A stretch of 64,000 nucleotides of DNA from Eledone cirrhosa. Lineage: Eukaryota. Below are positions 10,087 through 64,000 of this stretch, in pieces. How positions within the stretch are numbered: the first letter of the stretch is position 1; each line of letters opens with the position of its first letter. The DNA lies in assembly GCA_964016885.1 (NCBI GenBank), contig OZ024747.1:4278001-4342000 (forward strand), written 5' to 3'. Both the position numbers and the translations under genes were made by a program. Below the pieces are notes generated by a model. That model had not been told where the DNA came from and did not search any database. It was given only the letters and a program-made list of their open reading frames with translations.

Positions 10087-10102
10087 ACATATATATATAT
10101 AT

Positions 10103-10738
10103 AAGTATGTATAGGTACATACATATATGTATACAGACGTAGAGTAGTATGTATATATATACATACATGCACATATATATATATATGTACATATGGATTT
10201 ACCGAACATTTATTATAATGCTCAGTTTGTTTGTAAACAAACATCCCGAATTAAGCCGTACAATGTTTAGCAACCATATTTGCCCTTTTGTTCAACACTG
10301 GCAAAGGAACGATGTACTAGTTTCAAGCTTATTAGCTATCGTCAGCACTATACCTTCCTGCCAGATGATTGAACATCTGAAAGTATATACTTTCCTTATG
10401 CATATTAACGGCTGAGCAGCCTAATTTGCATATCGAGTGAGTTAATCGGCCGGGCGTATCGAAAACGATAAATGGAAAAAATGAAACGAATTTCATTTCT
10501 CACTCTTAGTACGGCTGTTACTTAAATATAAATATGTATACGTACATACATATATGTATACAGACGTACTGTAGTATGTATATATATACATACATGCACA
10601 CATATATATATATATGTATATATATACATACTACTGTACGTCTGTATACATATATGTATGTATGTATACATACTTATATTTAAGTAACAGCTGTACTAAG
10701 TGTGCGAAATGAAATTGCGTTTCATTTTTTCCATTTAT
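10103..10738 (-). mobile_element. non-coding hammerhead-bearing element (retrozyme or non-autonomous Penelope-like), ~427-bp unit, tandem plus inverted
   Basis: Direct repeat with period 427 (cagacgt at 10134 and 10561), inverted arms 10468-~10590 and ~10615-10738, hammerhead at 10312-10348, TA flanks. Confidence 0.8.
10312..10348 (-). ncRNA. minimal type I hammerhead ribozyme motif
   Basis: GUG CUGACGA U AGCU AAUA AGCU U GAAAC UA GUA CAU: intact core, 4-bp stem II, palindromic stem III (ACUAGU), 3-bp stem I. Confidence 0.75.
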
Positions 10739-10759
10739 ATATATATATATATATATATA

Positions 10760-10968
10760 ATTAGTACAGATTAAATTTTAAGCAAAGAATTTCTGCTTTC
10801 ACCTTATACGGTATCTTCAGAAGATAGGTGAAAACAGAAATTCTTTGCTTAAACTTTAATCTGTATTAATAATAAATATTTGTTCTACGGGTTTATATAT
10901 ACACTTATAAATATACATCCTTATCTAGTCCTCTTCGGATTTTTGTCTTTGAATTTATTATCACTGTA
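10760..10968. mobile_element. fold-back Penelope-like pLTR remnant
   Basis: Inverted arms ~10760-10804 and 10826-10870. The minus strand has CUGAAGA-UACC..GGU-GAAA near the centre, and a unique tail runs to (TA)n. Confidence 0.65.
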
Positions 10969-20601: not shown

Positions 20602-20640
20602 CATATATATATACATATATATATATATATACATATATAT

Positions 20641-21238
20641 ATGGTGGCTGCCAACTCGTTTTCGAGTACGGCCACTACTTTATATCCATGTAGGAGAACC
20701 CCTACCGATGCGCTGAACGAGTGTGACTTTTTAGTCCAGCCAGCGACTTGAAAACTCTGGTACAAACACTACACTTGTGACAATTACTGACACATAGTGC
20801 TGGGCCCATGGTACCATGTGACGACAAGTGCAGAGAGATCTCCAGATATAAAGCAATGCCTGTGCCGTGAAGCTTTTATAGTGAGCAAAGGCACTGCACA
20901 AAGCCAGTCCCACTCTCTTAACCAAGATGATATTTACCAAAAAGAAGAACAAGTCAACATCATTGGATACCATCAGGGTTGCAGGTGTTATATCAGAGTT
21001 TTCCTTCTCCTAGAATTCTGCCTTGACAAAGGCTAAGGGGTCATCTCTCCCGGTGATTTTGGATGGCCATTGACTCTTAAGAGCTCCTTTGCCCTTTGAC
21101 AGGTTTTGTTTTTAGTCCTGCAGGATGTCCAAAGTCACCCTCCTCACCAAGAAACCTTGGTGGGGTTGCCAGTTTAGTCGCCAACGACCCGACCATGAGA
21201 CAGGTTGTACTGGGATACATGTTACCAGTAGCACCAAC
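20641..21238 (-). mobile_element. ~600-bp non-autonomous RTE-derived retroposon
   Basis: Near-identical to 62424-63011. Has the RTE 5'-UTR-like motif ctaggagaaggaaaactctga, a remnant C2H2 finger ([17 protein letters not shown]) and a terminal stem-loop. Confidence 0.85.
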
Positions 21239-21642
21239 ATATATATATATACATATATATATATACATATATATATATATACATATATATATACATATAT
21301 ATATACATATATATATACATATATATATATATACATATATATATACATATATATATACATATATATATAAATACATATATATATACATATATATATACAT
21401 ATATATATACATATATATATATATACATATATATATACATATATATATATATACATATATATATACATATATATATACATATATATATATATACATATAT
21501 ATATACATATATATATACATATATATATACATATATATATATATACATATATATATACATATATATATATATACATATATATATAAATATATATATATAC
21601 ATATATATATATATACATATATATATAAATATATATATATAC

Positions 21643-21969: not shown

Positions 21970-22368
21970 TCTTTTCATTCAAAGAATATAAAATTCCTGA
22001 ATTTAAATCACAAACTAGCGCTATCAAAGACTGTTCCTGGGATGAGAGTGGATGATGTAGAACAGGTTTATCAAGGGCCGTAGTAAAGATAGAGGCAAAA
22101 GGAGGTAGGTCAAACTAGCCACCGCTGTTATCAGCAGCAGTCGGAATGACCCGGTTTGTTCTCAACGTTTGTGGAGGTAGTAGTAATATGAAATACGTCC
22201 TTTCACGCACAAGGCGCCAAGGTACGCATGTATTGTCCAACCAAGTGCCAGTGTGGTTCAATGGCGGGTTAATAAATTAACGAGCCAGAACAAATATAAA
22301 CAAGGTTTAGTAAATAATGAAAAAGTTTCAAAATAAATTTTAAAAAATTGACTTTACCTACTATAGTT

Positions 22369-22452
22369 ACCTTTACCGATCGGTTTCGAATCCCAAAAAT
22401 AAAACGTAGGTCATACGGCCTTCGTTGCAAAGAGAGATTCTCGTCAGAAGGT
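22369..22452 (-). ncRNA. type I hammerhead ribozyme, copy 2
   Basis: Same as 21886-21969 with one change in loop II. Confidence 0.88.
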
Positions 22453-22600
22453 TCTTTTCATTCAAGCAACGAAGGCCGTATGACCTACGTTTTATTTTTG
22501 GGATTCGAAACCGATCGGTAAAGGTAACTATAGTAGGTAAAGTCAATTTTTTAAAATTTATTTTGAAACTTTTTCATTATTTACTAAACCTTGTTTATAT

Positions 22601-23985: not shown

Positions 23986-24081
23986 TAGTCTGCAGAAGGT
24001 AAAGTAGGTCATTGGAGGAGAAAGTCATTGCATGTAATATTAGTAGGATGGGGGGGGGGGGGGGTACACCTAATTACACAG

Positions 24082-26040
24082 TACTACCAGCACCACCACT
24101 ACTACCACCACTACTACCACCAGCACTGCTACTACCACCAGCACCACTACTACCACCACTACTACCACCAGCACCACTACTACCACCAGCACCACTACTA
24201 CCACCACTACTACCACCAGCACTGCTACTACCACCAGCACTGCTACTACCACCAGCACCACTACTACCACCAGCACCACTACTACCACCACTACTACCAC
24301 CAGCACTGCTACTACCACCAGCACCACTACTACCACCAGCACTGCTACTACCACCAGCACCACTACTACCACCAGCACCACTACTACCACCAGCACTGCT
24401 ACTACCACCAGCACCACTACTACCACCAGCACTGCTACTACCACCAGCACCACTACTACCACCACTACTACTACCACCACCACTACTACCACCAGCACTG
24501 CTACTACCACCAGCACCACTACTACCACCACCACCACTACTACCACCAGCACCACTACTACCACCAGCACTGCTACTACCACCAGCACTGCTACTACCAC
24601 CACCACCACTACTACCACCAGCACCACTACCACCACCACCACTACTACCACCAGCACCACTACTACCACCAGCACTGCTACTACCACCACCACCACTACT
24701 ACCACCAGCACTGCTACTACCACCAGCACTGCTACTACCACCAGCACTACTACTACCACCAGCACCACTACTACCACCAGCACCACTACTACCACCAGCA
24801 CTGCTACTACCACCAGCACCACTACTACCACCAGCACCACTACTACCACCACCACTACTACCACCAGCACCACTACTACCACCAGCACTGCTACTACCAC
24901 CAGCACCACTACTACCACCAGCACCACTACTACCACCACCACTACTACCACCAGCACTGCTACTACCACCAGCACCACTACTACCACCACTTCTACAACC
25001 AACACCACTACTACCACCAGCACTACTACTACCACCAGCACTACTACTACCACCACTACTACTACTACCACCTCTACTACCACCAGCACCACTACTACCA
25101 CAACCACTACTACCACCACCACTGCTACCAGCACCACTACTACCACAACCACTACTACCACCACTACTACCACAACCACTACTACCACCACTACTACCAC
25201 AACCACTACTACCACCACTACTACCACAACCACTACTACCACCACTACTACCACCACCACTGCTACCAGCACCACTACTACCACAACCACTACTACCAAC
25301 ACTACTACCACCACCGCTGCCACCACCAACACTGCTACCAGCACCACTACTACCACCACCGCTGCCACTGCTACCAGCACCACTACTACCACCACCGCTA
25401 CCACCACCAACACTGCTACCAGCACCACTACTACCACCACCGCTGCCACTGCTACCAGCACCACTACTACCACCACCGCTACCACCACCAACACTGCTAC
25501 CAGCACCACTACTACCACCACCGCTGCCACTGCTACCAGCACCACTACTACCACCACCGCTGCCACTGCTACCAGCACCACTACTACCACCACCGCTGCC
25601 ACCACCAACACTGCTACCAGCACCACTACTACCACCACCGCTGCCACCACCAACACTGCTACCAGCACCACTACTACCACCACCGCTGCCACTGCTACCA
25701 GCACCACTACTACCACCACCGCTACCACCACCAACACTGCTACCAGCACCACTACTACCACCACCGCTGCCACCACCAACACTGCTACCAGCACCACTAC
25801 TACCACCACCACTACCACCAGCACCACTACCACCAGCACCACTACTACCACCAGCACTGCTACCACCAGCACCACTACTACCACCAGCACCACTACTACC
25901 ACCAGCACCACTACTACCACCACCACTACTACCACCAGCACCACTACTACCACCACCACTACTACCACCACCACTACTACCACCAACACCACTACTACCA
26001 CCAGCACCACTACTACCACCAGCACCACTACTACCACCAC
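24082..26040. repeat. ~2-kb degenerate (CAC/TAC/CAG)n array with higher-order units
   Basis: Triplet-phase array, open in several frames only because of its composition. Confidence 0.95.
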
Positions 26041-26207
26041 TCTCTCACTCTCTCTCACTCTCTCTCACTCCCGCTCTAAATCTCTCCCTCTCTAGCTATC
26101 TCTCTAACTCCATCTCTCTCTAACTCTCTCCTTATCTTTCCTTATCTCTTTCTTTTATTGCTCTCCCTCTCTACCTTTCTCACTTCCCCTCTCTACCTTT
26201 CTCACTT

Positions 26208-37119: not shown

Positions 37120-38083
37120 AAGATAATTTGTTATCCCATATATATATATATATATGTATAGATACATACAGAGAGAGAGAGATAGATATGTGTGTGTGTG
37201 TAAGGCCTCCCCTCTACATTTTATTGATGTTTGTCCAATGTCATATGACCTTATCATTAGGTTGTCCAACCTCACATTCACAGATGTTAAGTGTCTGTGT
37301 TGTTTCTATATTATTCCTAATCATCAGTTCCTTGCTATTGGTTATTTTAAAAAAGAGTAAATGAGTGTTAGGAGAGATTGGAAGTGATTGGTATCAATGG
37401 ATGGCATTGGAATAAGGTGGAAACAGAAGACATAGAGGGGTGAACTATTTAACGCATTTTCTAAGTAATCACTTTGTGCTGTGAAAGTTGATTTATATGT
37501 TCGTTTGGGGATATTGGTACTGACTTTATTTGTGGCTAGGGCCTTTAGAATAGCTGTAGATGTTTTAAAGAATTTTTAGTTATTGATTCATTCTATGCTA
37601 TTATGAATTCGGTTTTGTTAAGTGATGCATTACAATGCCTCTTTGTTGTAGGTGCATAGTCAGGTTTAGTGAAGTGTGTGGTGTTTGACCTTTGTAACGT
37701 TTACTTTATTTGAAAGTTTACAACTTCAAAGTTTATGTTTAAAATGATGTATGACATTTTCTATTCCTTTGCTATTGCTATATATATATTGTTAGGTGTT
37801 TGTATATACACATGAGCATGTAGACATCACAAACATCATATATACATATATGTATGTATGTGTACATATATATATTGTTGTGTTTGTATGTTCACATGAA
37901 CATGTGGTCATCACAGTAATCATATATACATATATGTATGTATACATACATGCATGCATACATATATGCGTGTGTGGTTGTGGGTATGTGTATATGCTTA
38001 TATATAAATATATATCATTATCATCATCATTGTCATTTTAACATCCACTTACCCTGCTGGCAAGGGCATGTATATATATATAT

Positions 38084-40766
38084 ACACAAAAGCCTTCCCT
38101 AGTGAGGAATGTACATCCCAACATAGCTTAGTTGTCAGCGACCTCACGGTCAGAACTAGACAAGCCCTGAAACAGAGGCCAACCTGGAGAAGAAAGATCT
38201 GGAAGCTGAAAGTCCCCTCAACCAGTAACAGATTTAAAGATATTTTACTCAACGCCTACGACAGTAAAGAAGAACAGCTAGAGACATTTAATGTAGAAGA
38301 GAACTGGGAGTTCCTAAAAAATAATTTACTAGAGGCGACGGACGAGGTTTGTGGCTGGAGTAAGACCTCAAGCAGGAGGAGAGTGACTTGGTGGTGGAAC
38401 AATAAGGTAGATGAAGCAGTCAAGGCCAAGAGACAGGCATGGAAAGAATGGAAGAACGGGGGGAGCAGGGTACATTACATAGAGACCAAGAGGGAAGCTA
38501 GGCGACAAGTATACTTAGCTAGGAGGGAAGCAGAGGATAGAAAATTCAAGCATGTTTTACAACGTGAGGACCAGAAACAGGAGGTATTCAAGATTGCGAG
38601 GCAGTGTGTCAGAGATAGTTGTGATGTCATTGGAGAGAAGTGTATCCGGAATGATAAAGGTGAGCTTGCCCTCACAAGTGCTGAGAAGTAAGATGCATGG
38701 AAGAGTCATTATGATAGATTACTAAATGAGGAGAATGCATGGGAAGAAGAGACCCTACCCCAAGTAGACCCTATAGAGGGACCAGCAGTACAAGTCAGCG
38801 GCAGCGTAGTAAGTAAGGCAATCAGAAATATGAAGATGGGGAAGGCAACCGGTCCATCGGGTATAGCTGCCGAGATGCTGAAGGCATCTGGGTCTGTAGG
38901 TCACACTATAACCACACGTATCGTTAACCAGGTAATACTAGAAGGGGCCATACCAAAAGATTGGTGCAGTAGCATCATTGTCAACTGCTACAAAGGTAAA
39001 GGCGATGCACTAGATAGAGGAAACTATAGAGGTATAAAGTTGATGGACCAGGTCATGAAAGTAACAGAAAGAGTTATAGCACAGCTGATTAGGGACCGGG
39101 TGAAAATAGACGAGATGCAATTTGGGTTTGTACCAGGAAGAGGCACCACTGATGCCCTCTTCCTTGTGAGGCAATTGCAGGAAAAGTACCTAGCTAAAAG
39201 TAAGCCACTCTACTTGGCATTTGTCGACCTTGAGAAAGCCTTTGACAGAGTTCCACGTGCTGTAATCTGGTGGGCTCTTAGAAAACTAGGAGTAGATGAA
39301 TGGCTTGTGAAAGTGGTACAAGCCATGTATAGGGGAGCAGTCAGCAAAGTTAGGATTAGCAATGAGTATAGCGAGGAATTTAGCGTACAGGTTGGGGTCC
39401 ACCAGGGCTCTGTTCTTAGCCCTCTCCTGTTCATCATAGTCCTGCAGGCAATAACGGAGGAGTTTAAGACCGGATGCCCATGGGAACTCCTGTATGCTGA
39501 TGACCTCGCACTCATAGCTGAATCTATGGTAGAACTAGAGAATAAATTCCAAACCTGGAAGCAGGGACTAGAAAGAAAGGGTCTCAAAGTCAACATGACA
39601 AAGACTAGGGTCCTTGTAAGTAGACGAGAAAACAGAACCCAGATCCCCTCAGGGAAATGGCCTTGCTCAGTATGTAGGAAAGGTGTAGGTAGGAACTCCA
39701 TTCTCTGCCCCAAATGCAAACAATGGGTACACAAGAGATGTAGCGGGATCTCAGGAAGCTTAATTAAGAATGTAGGATTCACATGCAGCAGCTGTGCTGA
39801 GACAGCAAACAGCAAATAGCCACAGGAAACAAGTACCACCAATCTCTGGGAGGGCCCTGTAGAAACAGTTGACAGCTTCTGCTACCTAGGTGACCGAATT
39901 AGCAACGGAGGTGGGTGTTCAGAAAGTGCAATAACTAGGGTAAGAATGGGATGGAAGAAGTTTAGGGAACTACTACCACTGCTAGCTGCAAAAGGCTTCT
40001 CCCTCTGAATGAAAGGCAGACTGTATGATGCGTGTATCCGAACAGCGATGTTGCATGGTAGCGAGACCTGGGCGCTGAAGGTGGAAGACTTACATAGATT
40101 AGAGAGAAACGAAGCCTGCATGCTCCGATGGATGTGTAACAATAATATACGTGAACGACAAAGCATAAATGAATTGAGAGAGAGACTGAGCATAAGAGGA
40201 ATCAAATGCTGTGTGCAGGAGAGGCGGTTGCGCTGGTATGGACATGTGATGCGTATGAAGGATGATAGCTGCATAAAAAGGTGCAGAGCACTAGAAGTTG
40301 ATGGAAACCGCGGAGTGGGGAGACCCAAGATGACCTGGGATGAGGTGATAAAAGCCGACCTTACCCAATTACACCTCTCAAAGACAATGACACACGACCG
40401 TGACTTCTGGCGTCACGCAGTAATACAGAGTACCCGACCTCCCATGGGTACAAGCTGAAGCATATAGACAATATGCCCCCACACCCCCCCACCGCAAGGT
40501 GGTCGTGGAGGTGCCACGGAAAAAAAGCACCCAGCCCACACTGTAAAGTGGACGTGTAGGCGCCACGGAAAAAAAATACCCAGCACTCACTGTAAATGAG
40601 GTTGGTGTTAGGAAGGGCATCCATCTGTAGAAATCAAGCCAAATCAGTTCCTGTATGAGCAAGGCATGGTCAGCCGACCAGACACTGCCCACAACAGGAC
40701 AACCCGTCTAACCCATGCTAGCGTGGAAGAACGGACGTAAAACGGTGATGATGATGATGATGATGA
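38084..40766 (+). mobile_element. RTE LINE (subfamily A), 5'-truncated, with in-frame stops
   Basis: ORFs 38068..38691, 38830..39819 (YADD, C4HC3 finger) and 40009..40458; 3' UTR and (GAT)n. Confidence 0.97.
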
Positions 40767-41168
40767 TAGACCCTGGTTTGGTCAGGTCAGGTTTCTGGTG
40801 TCATGAACCCAGTACAAACTACTTCATAGTTGAGTGACCCCACCAGACCCTGGTGGGGTCTGGTCAGACTTCTACCTGCTACTGGTGTCATGAACATAGT
40901 ACAAAATACTTCATGGTTGAGTGGTTGGTGATGACACCAGCTCCCTCAATAGACCCTTGTGGAACTAGCTCTATTATTTTAATGAAACACTGGGAATAAA
41001 TAATATATATTTATATTTTATCTATAATTTATTTTTTAACTTTTTAATTTATACTTTTTATGCTTTTTGATTTAATACGTTTTTTGTTAATGTAGGTTGT
41101 ATTTTTTTCATAATTCATTTTCGTCCATTTACTAAACAGACCAACTTTCATTATATTTTTTTAAACAA

Positions 41169-56162: not shown

Positions 56163-56578
56163 ATATCACAGAAAAAAGAGAATCAGTGTTGCAATGAAAG
56201 GAATTTATTGGACATATTACAATTGTTTCTCGGGCGACCAGCTCAAGGCACGATCGATGTGGTGATCAAACCTGACTCTGAGATCGCACGATCCTAGGAT
56301 ACGTCTTGATTCTACGAAGCAGATTTTCCTACGAAGCAAATTTTCGTAGAATCGAGACGTATCCGAGAACCGTGTGATTTCAGAGTCAGATTTGATCACC
56401 ACATCGATCGTGCCTTGCGCTGGTCACCCGAGAAACGATTGTAATATGTCCAATAATTTCCTTTCATTGCAACACTGATTCTCTTTTTTCTGTGATATCA
56501 TACTCTGCTCTATGAGGGCATCGAGTGCTCATATGGCCTATCGCATACGGACGCTTTAAGCATCCAACACCAATTATA
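56163..56578 (+). mobile_element. fold-back pLTR-like element
   Basis: ~150-bp imperfect inverted arms (56163-56318 and 56343-56498) containing GAAAC(A/G)ATTGTA, then a tail atactctgct..gagtgctc. Confidence 0.7.
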
Positions 56579-58452: not shown

Positions 58453-58484
<32 letters not shown>

Positions 58485-58619
58485 TATATATATATATTTA
58501 TTTATATATATATATATTTATATATATTTATATATATTTATATATTTATATATATATATTTATATATATTTATATATTTATATATATATATTTATATATA
58601 TATATATATTTATATTATT

Positions 58620-58651
<32 letters not shown>

Positions 58652-58681
58652 TATATATATTTATATATTTATATATATATA

Positions 58682-58872
58682 TTTAATATAGATGAGATTC
58701 TACAGGACTAGAACTGTTTCATTCTTTAGAAATCATCAGGAATCCTGATGATTTCTAAAGAATGAAACAGTTCTAGTCCTGTAGAATCTCATCTATATTA
58801 AAACTTTTATACTCTGCTATGTATTGAGTACCTTACTTACTGTGGTTACCTCCGATTCAACCCGGAATAACG
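58682..58872 (+). mobile_element. perfect 60-bp-arm palindrome with hammerhead core plus pLTR tail
   Basis: 58682-58741 and 58743-58802 form an exact inverted repeat. CUGAUGA-UUUCUAAAGAAU-GAAAC lies next to the axis; tail atactctgct..tgagtac. Confidence 0.75.
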
Positions 58873-58875
58873 TAT

Positions 58876-58907
<32 letters not shown>

Positions 58908-58991
58908 ATATATATTTATATTTATATATTTATATATATATATTTATATATGATATTAAATAAATGGAAACTATATTTATAAAACCATATT

Positions 58992-59057
58992 TATTTCGTT
59001 ATATATATTTCAGGGATATCATATTAACAATATGTTATGCCATCTTCAGACAAAATA
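58992..59057 (-). ncRNA. type I hammerhead motif
   Basis: UAUUUUGU CUGAAGA U[GG..CAUAUU-GUU-AAUAUG..CC]CU GAAA UAUAUA UA ACGAAAUA: 8-bp stem I, palindromic stem III. Confidence 0.65.
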
Positions 59058-59225
59058 CAATATAAACAGTCTTATAAATAAATAGATACGACATACCTTT
59101 CAATCACCTTGCATTTGTGAGGTTGATTTGGCAGTAAAAAAATATTGTGGACCTATAAATATTTACTCGTTGTTAACCCAACAATTTAAATATAACTTTC
59201 CATGTATATTTATATATATATTTTA

Positions 59226-59257
<32 letters not shown>

Positions 59258-59299
59258 ATTTATATTTGGATATAATGCTCTGAAATAGTGATATATATG

Positions 59300-59526
59300 T
59301 GAAGACAAACATAGAATATTCGAAAATATTCTGTATGTTTATAATAAACATTTCGAAGACCCAATCGCTATAGAATAGAATACGTCACGTATTAGGTTAC
59401 TTCCCTTGCTTTTATCGAGAATCTCAAATTGTAATACGTGACGTATTCTATTCTATAGCGATTGGGTCTTCGAAATGTTTATTATAAACATACAGAATAT
59501 TTTCGAATATTCTATGTTTGTCTTCA
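59300..59526. repeat. fold-back element, 95-bp arms with 37-bp spacer
   Basis: 59300-59394 is the reverse complement of 59432-59526; TA-rich flanks. Confidence 0.9.
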
Positions 59527-59678
59527 TATATATTTATATATATATATATATATTTATATATATTTATATATTTGTATATATATATACAATTAAGTTAAAG
59601 TGTACATCTACATATGTATACGGAAGTATTAGTATGCATATAAATATGTATACATATAAATACACATATGTATACATA

Positions 59679-60444
59679 TTTTCTGGGTGGGAAATGACGA
59701 TGGGATGGGTGGTGTAGGTATACTATTAGCTGACAAGTGGGTAGATAAAGTAATCTCAGTGTACAGGGTAAATGCAAGAATCATTAAACTCAGACTAGTC
59801 CTGAATAAGACAATTACCACAATAATATCAGCTTACGCACCCCAATCGGGGCTGCCAGACGAACTTAAGGATAGGTTTTACGAGTCCCTAATACACACTA
59901 CTGCTCTAACAGACGACAAGGACTTCCTAATCATTGCAGGAGATTTTAACGGACACGTAGGTAAACACTGCGACGGCTTCAATAGAGTATATGGAGGCCA
60001 TGGAGTTGGCACAAGGAATGAGGAAGGATTCAGACTTCTAGAATTCTGCGACGCCAATGACATGTCGATATGTAACACAAACTTTAAAAAACCCGACAAC
60101 CACCTGATCACCTATAGATCAGGGGAGCACTCTAGTCAGTTAGATTTTATCCTCATCGGAGGACGTGACAGATGGACGGTCGTAAACACAAAAGCCTTCC
60201 CTAGTGAGGAATGTACATCCCAACATAGCTTAGTTGTCAGCGACCTCACGGTCAGAACTAGACGAGCCCTGAAACAGAGGCCAACCTGGAGAAGAAAGAT
60301 CTGGAAGCTGAAAGTCCCCTCAACCAGTAATAGATTTAAAGATATTTTACTCAACGCCTACGACAGTAAAGAAGAACAGATAGAGACATTTAACGTAGAA
60401 GAGAACTGGGAGTTCCTAAAAAATAACTTACTAGAGGCGACGGA
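59679..60444 (+). mobile_element. internal RTE (subfamily A) APE fragment lacking both ends
   Basis: ORF 59687..60481 (SAYAPQ, GDFNGHV, LDFIL). 60187-60444 is near-identical to 38084-38342. Confidence 0.93.
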
Positions 60445-60725
60445 TGGCTCTCTGGAGAATAGAGGAAGTGTGTTTCCTTGAAAACCCGTATGACTTTAAA
60501 ACCCAGTTCGTCTGTGTGTTTACATACAGACTAGCTGGACACTCACTGCAAAGTGTCTAGTGAAAAGCTCGGTACATGTACATATGTATACATATGTGTA
60601 TTTATATGCATACTAATACTTCCGTATACATATGTAGATGTACACTTTAACTTAATTGTTTAAGCGTCAGTCATACAAAAATGAGTTAGAAGCGAAACAA
60701 AATTTAATTTTGTTTCGTTATTATT
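60445..60725 (+). mobile_element. diverged relative of the ~427-bp hammerhead element, with its inverted arm at 59586-59678
   Basis: Shares gtttaca.aca.act, tcggta..catatgta and the terminal gcgaaa..tttc hairpin with the minus strand of 10103-10738. 60582-60659 is inverted relative to 59586-59678. Confidence 0.6.
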
Positions 60726-60741
60726 TATATATATATATATT

Positions 60742-60772
<31 letters not shown>

Positions 60773-61667
60773 TTATATATATTATATATATATATATTTA
60801 TATATATATTTATATATATATTTATTTATATATATACACACACATCTGTTTTGACACACTTATACATATACATATATATATAAATGAGTTTGGAATAGCA
60901 ACCAGGTGAAAAGCGAAAAAGTAAAGAGCCACATAGGATAATAGGTAACTGAAAGTGTCATAGTGATCTTGTGATAGAAAGGAATATGTGAAGCAGTAAA
61001 TAGTAGGAAAAATCTCTCATTAACAAACGTCTTCCTATTGTTAAGATGAAGTAAAACAACAAACTGTGGAAAGTTGTAAAAACCTCCAGTAAATTCTTAT
61101 GACATATTAAAAAATGCAGAGAAAATATAAATAACTAAAAGAAATTAACTAACTATATGACAGATATCTTAATAGTCTCAGAGAAGTCGAAGGAATTGTT
61201 TAATAAAAAATATATTATAGAGAAAACTTGTAGGGAAATTTTAGCATAAAAAAACAGTGTTGTTGCAATGAAATGGCAAAGAAAGAACACCACAAAAAAA
61301 AAATTAAATTAAAACAGCAAGGGGGAAAATATATTTAAAGGAAGAGACTATACCGGGGGTTATGTAGGAGGAAATAAGAAATAAGTGATGTTACGATTGT
61401 AGTTGTGAGTTCTGAAAGGGGAAGATGGAAGGATAAAATACTTGAGTATTAATACAAAGGAGAAAAATATGTGAAAAGTAGTAGGTCTAAGTTTAAGGTG
61501 AGTCAAAGCTTAATTGGATAAAATAGGTTATTGCAATAAGAATATGAAAAAAAAAAAAAGATAATATAAAGAGAACATAGGTATATAAAGGTATAGAATA
61601 TCAAAGGTAGACACAATTAGGAATGTTTGTATTGAAATCTGATAAATGTATTATATAAATTAGAGGA

Positions 61668-61933: not shown

Positions 61934-62411
61934 CTATGACCATCAGAAGTTATACATGTTATACATTTTAACCAACACACACGCAGACATACATACATAG
62001 ACACACACACACACATACACACATAGACACACGCATAGACACACACACATAGACACACACACACATACATAGACACACACACACACACACACATACATAT
62101 ATGTTGACATTGTCAATGTAGGAATTAAGAAGCACAATGTTACATATAGTTTCATGACAAAGTTTTAAAATAAAATCAACAAATTACCAATTTTCTAACC
62201 CACATGCTTATTCCCCACTCCCATCTATTCCAACTCCCCCATTTATTCTCCCCATCAATTCTCCCCATCAATTATTCCACCCCCACCCCCTATTATTTGG
62301 GATTTGAGAGTATATATGAATATATATATATATGTATGTATATGTGTATGTATGTATGTATGTATGTATGTATAAAGTGTATGTATGTATGTATGTATGT
62401 ATGTATATTAT

Positions 62412-63040
62412 GTCAGGTCACCAGTTGGTGCTACTGGTAACATGTATCCCAGTACAACCTGTCCCATGGTCGGGTCGTTGGCGACTAAACTGGCAACCCC
62501 ACCAAGGTTTCTTGGTGAGGAGGGTGACTTTGGACATCCTGCAGGACTAAAAACAAAACCTGGCAAAGGAGCTCTTAAGAGTCAATGGCCATCCAAAATC
62601 ACCGGGAGAGATGACCCCTTAGCCTTTGTCAAGGCAGAATTCTAAGAGAAGGAAAACTCTGATATAACACCTGCAACCCTGATGGTATCCAATGATGTTG
62701 ACTTATTCTTCTTTTTGGTAAATATCATCTTGGTTAAGAGAGTGGGACTGGCTTTGTGCAGTGCCTTTGCTCACTATAAAAGCTTCACGGCACAGGCATT
62801 GCTTTATATCTGGAGATCTCTCTACACTTGTCGTCACATGGTACCAAAGGCCCAACACTATGTGTCAATAATTGTCACAGGTGTAGTGTTTGTACCAGAG
62901 TTTTCAAGTCGCTGGCTGGACTAAAAGTCACACTTGTTTAGCGCATCGGTAGGGGTTCTCCTACATGGATATAAAGTAGTGGCCGTACTCGAAAACGAGT
63001 TGGCAGCCACCATGTATGTATGTATGTATGTATGTATGTA
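62412..63040 (+). mobile_element. ~600-bp non-autonomous RTE-derived retroposon with (TATG)n tail
   Basis: Near-identical to the reverse complement of 20641-21238. Confidence 0.88.
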
Positions 63041-63041
63041 T

Positions 63042-63428
63042 GAATTCTAGGAGAAGGAAAACTCAGATATAACACCTGCAACCCTGATGGTATCCAATGA
63101 TGTTGACTTATTCTTCTTTTTGGTAAATATCATCTTGGTTAAGAGAGTGGGACTGGCTTTGTGCAGTGCCTTTGCTCACTATAAAAGCTTCACGGCACAG
63201 GCATTGCTTTATATCTGGAGATCTCTCTGCACTTGTCGTCACAGGGTACCATGGGCCCAGCACTATGTGTCAATAATTGTCACAAGTGTAGTGTTTGTAC
63301 CAGAGTTTTCAAGTCGCTGGCTGGACTAAAAAGTCACACTCGTTCAGCGCATCAGTAGGGGTTCTCCTACATGGATATAAAGTAGTGGCCGTACTCGAAA
63401 ACGAGTTGGCAGCCACCATGTATGTATG
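63042..63428 (+). mobile_element. 5'-truncated tandem copy of the same retroposon
   Basis: Repeats 62637-63020. Confidence 0.88.
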
Positions 63429-63459
63429 TGTATATATATATGTGTGTATGTATGCATGT

Positions 63460-64000
63460 ATGTAGTAGAAAGCCTATTCGTGCCTGAGTACAGCCACTTC
63501 TTAGAAGAGAAAAAAAAAGTTACTAATAGACATCTCCCAAAACATGTTATTGATGTTGCTGTCACTGATGCCATCTTAGATGACTCATCAAACCAGGAAG
63601 TGACTTACATGCCATACCACACAGTGTGCAGTTTCCCACCTGCTCGAGTCTGGTTGGCATGGCATGCCTCGTGGTGCAGAGTGACACATCTTGTTTCAGA
63701 TGCCGGAGGCAAAATCAATGTCTATGGTGTACTCAAATGGGTTATTTCTGTATGACATCTGCTATGGCTTAGTAGCCCATCCCTTGGCATATATACATGT
63801 TCTCATTCCCCACAGGTAAAAGCTTCTTTCAAATCTCGTTCAGGTCTTAGATCCTCTGTTTCTTTTCAGATTCCTCATCACCAGCAGCAATGAGATATTG
63901 CCACTGGGTTCTATTGGTTGCAAGATTTTCCCATGGTTCCGTATTGATCTGACTTTCTTCAAGGTACCTTCCAAGCAAACTTTGAAGCACTTATGTGGTT
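63460..64000 (-). mobile_element. old RTE LINE 3' end with C2H2 zinc finger (runs off window)
   Basis: Minus strand INTEPWENLATNRTQW and CTLCGMACKSLPGLMSHLRWHQ-stop; terminal gtggctgtactc..cga hairpin and CATA tail. Confidence 0.75.

What the first reader, a model, noticed from the sequence alone, without database searches (positions are those of the whole stretch)
59586..60725. Internal RTE endonuclease fragment captured between the inverted arms of a hammerhead-family element
Seen: a 766-bp open APE fragment (59679-60444) has neither an RTE 5' end nor a 3' tail. It differs from 38084-38342 by about 5 mismatches in ~260 bp. It sits exactly between an inverted arm (59586-59678) and the body (60445-60725) of a relative of the 427-bp family. 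Known: LINE TPRT starts at the 3' tail, so tail-less internal pieces are not normal products. Inference: a template switch by the PLE-type machinery onto an RTE mRNA, meaning these elements can transduce foreign RNA.
Basis: partly seen in the sequence, partly recalled or inferred. Interest (0 to 1): 0.7.

Follow-up and report, generated by a model that had tools for sequence, protein, structure and literature searches.

The report
Retrozyme insertion captured a LINE fragment
A 766-base middle piece of one jumping gene sits at the seam of a two-armed insertion of an unrelated ribozyme repeat, similar mixed seams occur in 6 of 138 other copies checked, and the piece was likely picked up when the copying enzyme jumped from one RNA to another during insertion.

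Summary
Observation confirmed. The host is a 470-nt hammerhead-motif tandem repeat (non-LTR retrozyme type, at least 2,045 insertions). It usually lies in (TA)n as two head-to-head arms that begin at two fixed sites (monomer ~226-235 and ~300), a Penelope-like footprint that this scan has already noted on other DNA. This copy keeps both ends, lacks the hammerhead, and holds a tail-less RTE-type APE fragment (763/766 identical to young copies) at the central seam, with 1-nt and 2-nt microhomology. The right junction is unique in the genome. The event recurs: of 138 resolved loci, 2 hold other tail-less LINE pieces at the seam (RTE RT, R2-like) and 4 more join an arm of another element (Penelope-like element, other repeats). 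None holds a tailed RTE inside the repeat. Best reading: template switch during two-ended integration. Whose reverse transcriptase did it is open. Against: the body has 3 of 18 CpG bases mutated and the cargo 0 of 50 (p=0.016), no reads bridge the junction, and RTE also targets TA-rich DNA. 'Transduction' is overstated: the cargo is a one-off, dead copy.

The parts
59526..59585 (.). (TA)n-like left flank (target microsatellite)
   Evidence: sequence
59586..59679 (-). Inverted arm, monomer 228 to 151 of the 470-nt repeat; starts at the family's second fixed end; 16-nt internal duplication at about 59647-59662
59679..60446 (+). Internal, tail-less fragment of a young RTE-type LINE (APE domain without its N-terminal motifs, plus linker); T shared with the arm, TG shared with the body
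60445..60722 (+). Forward body, monomer 14-291, starting 13 nt after the predicted hammerhead cut site; no hammerhead in this copy; 4 near-private substitutions
60723..60836 (.). Degenerate element end (monomer 292-300) running into the (TA)n-like right flank
38081..40767 (+). Sister RTE-type copy, 5'-truncated with (GAT)n tail; comparison only, not the donor
10096..10738 (-). Copy of the related ~430-bp family with a hammerhead-like core read from 10345 on the minus strand; comparison only

Best explanation
This is a two-armed insertion of a hammerhead-motif repeat in (TA)n with a tail-less RTE-type fragment at its central seam, and the fragment was likely copied in when a Penelope-type reverse transcriptase jumped from the repeat's RNA onto RTE mRNA during integration. 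Shown: both arms begin at the family's two fixed ends, the junctions share 1 and 2 bases, and other foreign pieces occur at the same seam elsewhere. Inferred steps: a GIY-YIG PLE protein cuts both strands of (TA)n and primes one cDNA from each end, at monomer ~300 and ~228. The cDNA from 300 stops at 14, close to the predicted self-cleaved 5' end, pairs by TG with RTE mRNA and copies 766 nt. The product is then end-joined to the short second cDNA, whose 16-nt slip marks the joining. The result is a dead copy.
For: Architecture: of 138 resolved loci, 85 have an inverted arm starting at 222-236 and 14 more a short (<30 nt) one. A purified PLE protein cuts and extends both strands and starts at two internal sites (PMC11167929). 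Recurrence: L174 has a ~63-nt internal piece of an R2-like LINE (98% to its best other copy; 9 matches including itself) between both arms, joined near monomer 11-14 by local similarity. L153 has a 143-nt RTE RT piece (100% to a copy on C13) between a GIY-YIG PLE arm and the repeat. That seam is no palindrome, so later cruciform breakage does not explain it. L262 joins a whole PLE 3' end on (TA)n head-to-head with the repeat by CC. L260, L237 and L256 join arms of other repeats. L096 and L091/L027, from other samples, also join PLE ORF pieces. Ordinary self-seams mostly show 0-5 nt overlap (57 of 92), like this one. Inverted arms end within 20 nt of the cut site in 11 of 85 loci (p=0.001). Non-CpG divergence is equal in body (1/260) and cargo (3/716).
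Against: CpG bases: 3 of 18 mutated in the body against 0 of 50 in the cargo (Fisher p=0.016; all sites 4/278 vs 3/766, p=0.09). The body's nearest neighbour among 109 loci is 5 differences away, and one variant pair is unique in the genome. The repeat may therefore be older than the cargo, or its source carried these changes. Forward-arm starts are not enriched near the cut site (9 of 135, p=0.12). In 24 loci picked for a seam near the cut site, only this one had cargo. All 3 cargoes are LINE pieces and none is host mRNA, which fits the LINE's own RT equally well. The left junction lies in TA-rich sequence of the kind RTE uses. The autonomous partner is not identified.
Confidence: 0.45

Rival explanations
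1. The RTE's own reverse transcriptase used a free 3' DNA end at the seam (the unfinished integration intermediate, or a later break at the palindrome centre) to prime inside its own mRNA, without its endonuclease.
For: All 3 seam cargoes come from LINE families with near-identical copies (99.6%, 100%, 98%) and none from host mRNA. Tail-less, TSD-less L1 pieces at breaks are described (PMC1920257; abstract, section 11 and passages). A later date would explain the CpG mismatch.
Against: The same seam also joins arms of PLEs and of non-coding repeats (L262, L260, L237, L256), which have no LINE RT. L153 has no palindrome to break later.
Confidence: 0.27
2. An ordinary RTE inserted into the TA-rich part of an existing arm; a later deletion removed its 3' ~2.4 kb, its tail and the inner part of the repeat.
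For: Many young RTE copies have (TA)n 5' flanks. The arm ends at monomer 151, and L228 has another element inserted at 155-168. The body looks older at CpG sites. Palindrome centres are deletion-prone (own knowledge).
Against: It needs two events. 19 of 20 sampled RTE copies keep their tail, and 29 of 29 run at least 1.2 kb past the fragment's end. No RTE tail abuts an internal repeat position in the 149 loci, whereas 2 of 138 have tail-less LINE pieces at the seam. The L174 and L153 junctions are not TA-rich.
Confidence: 0.15
3. A DNA-templated repair patch (polymerase theta or strand invasion) copied from one of the genomic RTE copies.
For: At least 1,256 genomic copies carry this region. 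Short microhomology and a local templated duplication are typical of such repair (own knowledge).
Against: The L174 cargo comes from a family with only 9 matches. All identified cargoes are retroelement sequence, not random genomic DNA.
Confidence: 0.09
4. Assembly chimera.
For: Both partners are high-copy, and the region is palindromic and microsatellite-rich. No read support was obtained.
Against: The junctions share only 1-2 bases, both canonical ends are in place, and other loci show the same kind of seam.
Confidence: 0.04

Closest known systems
Animal non-LTR retrozymes (PMC7229834, passages; bioRxiv 10.64898/2026.07.22.740005, parts 1-2 of 5)
   Same: Non-coding tandem units, each with a type I hammerhead motif; PLE proposed as mobiliser.
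   Different: In what I read there is no head-to-head two-site architecture ('inverted' occurs 0 times in PMC7229834) and no foreign cargo. This window copy lacks the hammerhead.
EN+ Penelope-like elements (PMC8557442 passages; PMC11167929 parts 1-2 of 4)
   Same: Inverted 5'-truncated copy, a tail at one end, (TA)n target, both strands extended, two internal RT start sites.
   Different: The unit has no RT gene; the two ends are about 70 nt apart against a 30-40 bp tail; the two arms can come from different elements.
Penelope capture of foreign sequence in Adineta vaga (PMC3846280, passages)
   Same: Unrelated sequence framed by pLTRs; template jumps proposed.
   Different: There, host DNA or genes lie between direct pLTRs with TSDs. 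Here, internal pieces of other retroelements lie at the inverted seam.
Chimeric retrogenes by LINE template switching (PMC2104539, abstract)
   Same: Copies of different RNAs fused directly, up to three parts.
   Different: LINE-driven, with LINE tail and TSD. Here the outer ends are PLE-type and the LINE is the passenger.
Non-classical (endonuclease-independent) L1 insertions (PMC1920257; abstract, section 11, passages)
   Same: Tail-less internal LINE piece with microhomology junctions.
   Different: Those fill genomic breaks; this one sits at the seam of another element's insertion.

Membership tests
Non-LTR retrozyme (host family) | Tandem units each carrying a type I hammerhead motif | tested here: met
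   463-470-nt units, up to 10 or more in tandem; CUGAUGA-stem II-GAAA core; Hammerhead_HH9 E 1.4e-5, 34.2 bits, below the gathering score of 52
Non-LTR retrozyme (this copy) | Hammerhead present in the copy | tested here: not met
   Copy spans monomer 14-291 and 151-228 only: a truncated, dead copy
Non-LTR retrozyme (host family) | Self-cleavage and circular RNA expression | not testable with these tools
   The minimal fold of the 61-nt motif does not show the hammerhead (z -0.36); a dimeric fold was not tested
PLE-type insertion | Inverted 5'-truncated arm | tested here: met
   99 of 138 resolved loci (85 long, 14 short)
PLE-type insertion | Two fixed internal RT start sites (tail at one end) | tested here: met
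   Arm starts at 224-235 opposite ends at ~300; the 300 end was the selection criterion
PLE-type insertion | Microsatellite target | tested here: met
   2,045 exact ends followed by (TA)n
PLE-type insertion | Autonomous RT plus GIY-YIG partner identified | tested here: inconclusive
   Three different PLE-like ORFs are found fused to the repeat (L091/L027 and L262; L096; L153). Pfam support is weak: RVT_1 E 2.5e-4, GIY-YIG E 0.004 for L153 only
RTE clade (cargo) | Single ORF with APE and RT, short-repeat tail | tested here: met
   APE; long ORF in L036 matching both the APE piece and an RT piece; (GAT)n tail in 19 of 20 copies
RTE clade (cargo) | RT phylogeny places it in RTE | not tested
The labels R2-like and Hydra-like are also recalled from motifs
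Non-classical LINE insertion | 3' truncation, no tail | tested here: met
Non-classical LINE insertion | No TSD; pre-insertion site reconstructed | not testable with these tools
   No related genome is held; flanks are (TA)n

The most novel reading that the evidence does not exclude
The central seam of Penelope-type two-ended insertions is a general RNA-recombination point: the two target ends can be primed on different RNAs, and the enzyme can bridge them through any retroelement mRNA nearby. About 4% of retrozyme insertions would then be mosaics of retrozyme, PLE and LINE RNAs. These mosaics would physically link retrozymes to their PLE drivers and offer a route for domain shuffling between retroelement classes.
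Probability: 0.45. Interest if true: 0.68.

Novelty: new variant of a known kind. Interest (0 to 1): 0.5.

Why it matters
How PLEs build their inverted and tandem insertions, and whether they drive animal retrozymes, are open questions in the papers read (PMC8557442, PMC11167929, PMC7229834). Mixed seams, with one arm from a PLE and one from a retrozyme, or a LINE piece in between, are direct footprints that the two arms are made separately and that templates can be exchanged. They give a simple in vitro test and name candidate partner PLEs. The single window event has no likely function: the APE piece lacks its N-terminal motifs and the copy cannot self-cleave.

Tried and rejected
Reads: four contig sets (2 studies, at most 3 samples) were laid on 59690-60560. 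No listed contig bridges the right junction; loose ends continue as ordinary RTE or ordinary repeat. These may be other individuals or species, so this is no evidence either way. The left junction was not tested with reads. No RNA holder listed. Amplification of the chimera: rejected, 1 match with 1 mismatch allowed. 38081-38342 as donor: rejected, 6 differences in 262 against 3 in 766 for many copies elsewhere. Cargo orientation as evidence: rejected by symmetry. Position 14 as the base of a stem: rejected, the predicted stem spans about 1-28. General CpG hypermutability in these arrays: not seen (0.28% against 0.36% per site in 104 loci), so the body's CpG changes are not explained by it. 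A-to-G editing scars in cargo: one change each in the window and in L174, too few to use. The ESM Atlas look-up of a PLE protein gave no result. Ungapped difference counts were off by one base and were redone.

Full report
Observation. The window is G000:C7:4278001-4342000 of a 3.0-Gb genome. 59679-60446 is an internal piece of an RTE-type LINE: open frame, Pfam Exo_endo_phos_2, starting about 80 codons into the ORF. It is 763/766 identical to each of 29 fetched copies, which all extend on both sides. At least 1,256 places carry an exact 32-mer of the region. It differs from 38084-38342 at 5 of 259 bases. On its left is an inverted arm (59586-59679), on its right a forward body (60445-60722). 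One base (T) is shared at the left junction and two (TG) at the right. The right junction occurs once in the genome.

The host element. Body and arm belong to a 470-nt tandem unit. Numbered from the predicted cut site, the hammerhead core lies at 440-470 (Hammerhead_HH9 E 1.4e-5, below gathering). The window copy covers 14-291 and 228 to 151, so it has no hammerhead. An exact end at 300 followed by (TA)n occurs 2,045 times.

Survey. I fetched 152 loci from the first listed places of two end patterns (81 of 2,045; 71 of 269; C1-C3 only). I dropped 3 as duplicates, and 11 had arrays running off the stretch, leaving 138. Automatic classes: 85 with an inverted arm starting at 222-236, 14 with a short arm, 15 with (TA)n directly, 9 with an arm from another start, 15 with another flank. 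I checked the last two classes by eye. This is the layout described for Penelope-like elements (PMC8557442, passages). It matches the in vitro result that a PLE protein cuts and extends both strands from two internal start sites (PMC11167929, parts 1-2 of 4). The window copy has both canonical ends; only its seam is unusual.

Other mixed seams. L174 has both arms with a ~63-nt internal piece of an R2-like LINE between them, joined near monomer 11-14 where the two RNAs resemble each other. L153 has the repeat arm, then 143 nt of RTE RT (100% to a copy on C13), then the 3' part of a GIY-YIG PLE. L262 has a complete PLE 3' end on (TA)n joined head-to-head to the repeat by CC. L260 joins the ~430-bp family; L237 and L256 join other repeats. 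That is 6 of 138 clear cases, 2 of them with LINE cargo. Six more (L144, L166, L228, L233, L234, L284) abut other repeats and were not resolved. Outside this sample, L096 and L091/L027 fuse the repeat to PLE ORF pieces, L091 with the same PLE family as L262. A targeted pattern for seams near the cut site gave 24 loci, and only the window's had cargo, so cargo is rare.

Insertion plus deletion. RTE copies often have (TA)n flanks, the arm ends in TA-rich sequence, and L228 shows a secondary insertion at monomer 155-168. But 19 of 20 sampled RTE copies keep their (GAT)n tail, 29 of 29 run on for at least 1.2 kb, and no RTE tail abuts an internal repeat position in 149 loci. Tailed insertions should outnumber trimmed ones; they do not.

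Dating, which cuts both ways. Non-CpG differences are equal (body 1/260, cargo 3/716) and close to the within-array level of 0.36%. CpG bases differ: 3 of 18 against 0 of 50, p=0.016. Two of the three keep a hairpin pair, and each of those two occurs singly in other loci, so they may come from the source RNA. The body may also be older than the cargo.

Mechanism. Shown: two fixed ends, seam position, microhomologies, recurrence. Inferred: two-ended target priming by a PLE protein, a jump onto RTE mRNA near the repeat RNA's 5' end, and end-joining to the second cDNA (0.45). The main rival differs only in the enzyme and perhaps the timing: the RTE's own RT priming on a free end (0.27), as in non-classical L1 insertions (PMC1920257; abstract, section 11, passages). 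All 3 cargoes are LINE pieces, which keeps that rival alive. Read support could not be obtained, and the left junction was not tested.

Relation to what is known. PLE capture of foreign sequence (PMC3846280, passages), LINE template-switch chimeras (PMC2104539, abstract) and the PLE origin of retrozymes (bioRxiv 10.64898/2026.07.22.740005, parts 1-2 of 5; PMC7229834, passages) are in print. Seven searches listed no paper on LINE pieces or foreign arms at the seam of retrozyme insertions. The library lacks most subscription papers and I read no supplements; the supplements of PMC8557442 and PMC3846280 could show such structures. Earlier notes of this scan describe the two-arm architecture for several families in this genome; the 8 notes listed for a cargo query did not describe mixed seams.

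Verdict. Real, and a new variant of a known kind. The single event is a dead chimera. Its value is as one of a recurrent class of mixed seams that make PLE template switching and the retrozyme-PLE link testable. Interest 0.5.

Noticed in passing
L091:6390-9843 (G000:C2 near 90.364-90.367 Mb) and L262:2850-4297: A PLE with RT, a C-terminal GIY-YIG-like region and its own hammerhead-like core, ending on (TA)n in L262, is fused to the 470-nt repeat at two independent loci: a candidate autonomous partner.
   Followed up: partly
L153:2699-4496: Three-part insertion: GIY-YIG PLE 3' part, 143 nt of RTE RT, and the retrozyme.
   Followed up: yes
L194-L198: Low-copy R2-like LINE (RT plus a restriction-like nuclease motif, label recalled) with a 3' UTR of short TTTTGTTTTAGAC-led repeats; one copy's 5' end lies in (TA)n.
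   Followed up: no
window 58474-59008, 59206-59615, 56163-56498, 22294-22600, 10468-10738, 10751-10879: Further head-to-head palindromic insertions in (TA)n from other families; hammerhead-like cores at 58745(+)/58739(-) and 10820(-).
   Followed up: no
window 38008-38080: The sister RTE copy is preceded by an inverted RTE-type tail piece and (TA)n: a nested or inverted insertion.
   Followed up: no
L228:1469-2743; window 20617-21341, 62311-63464: A ~700-1,300-bp repeat ending in GGCAGCCACC inserts into TA/TACA-rich DNA, including inside a retrozyme unit.
   Followed up: no
L008, L147, L275, L143 left flanks: Some copies have short inverted or direct copies of the flank at the 5' junction instead of a second arm.
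   Followed up: partly
G000:C1:95620998-95637955, L124, L136, L179: Some arrays run to 10 or more units, one over at least 17 kb; two subfamilies (469-470 nt and 463-468 nt) differ by about 10-14%.
   Followed up: no
window 23989-26100: 2.1-kb (CCA/CTA)-type repeat array with 9- and 18-nt periods, open in several frames.
   Followed up: no
runs X4 and X5 on 59690-60446: Contigs labelled as two other organisms carry the same RTE region with only the same 3 differences, and X4 also carries the repeat.
   Followed up: no
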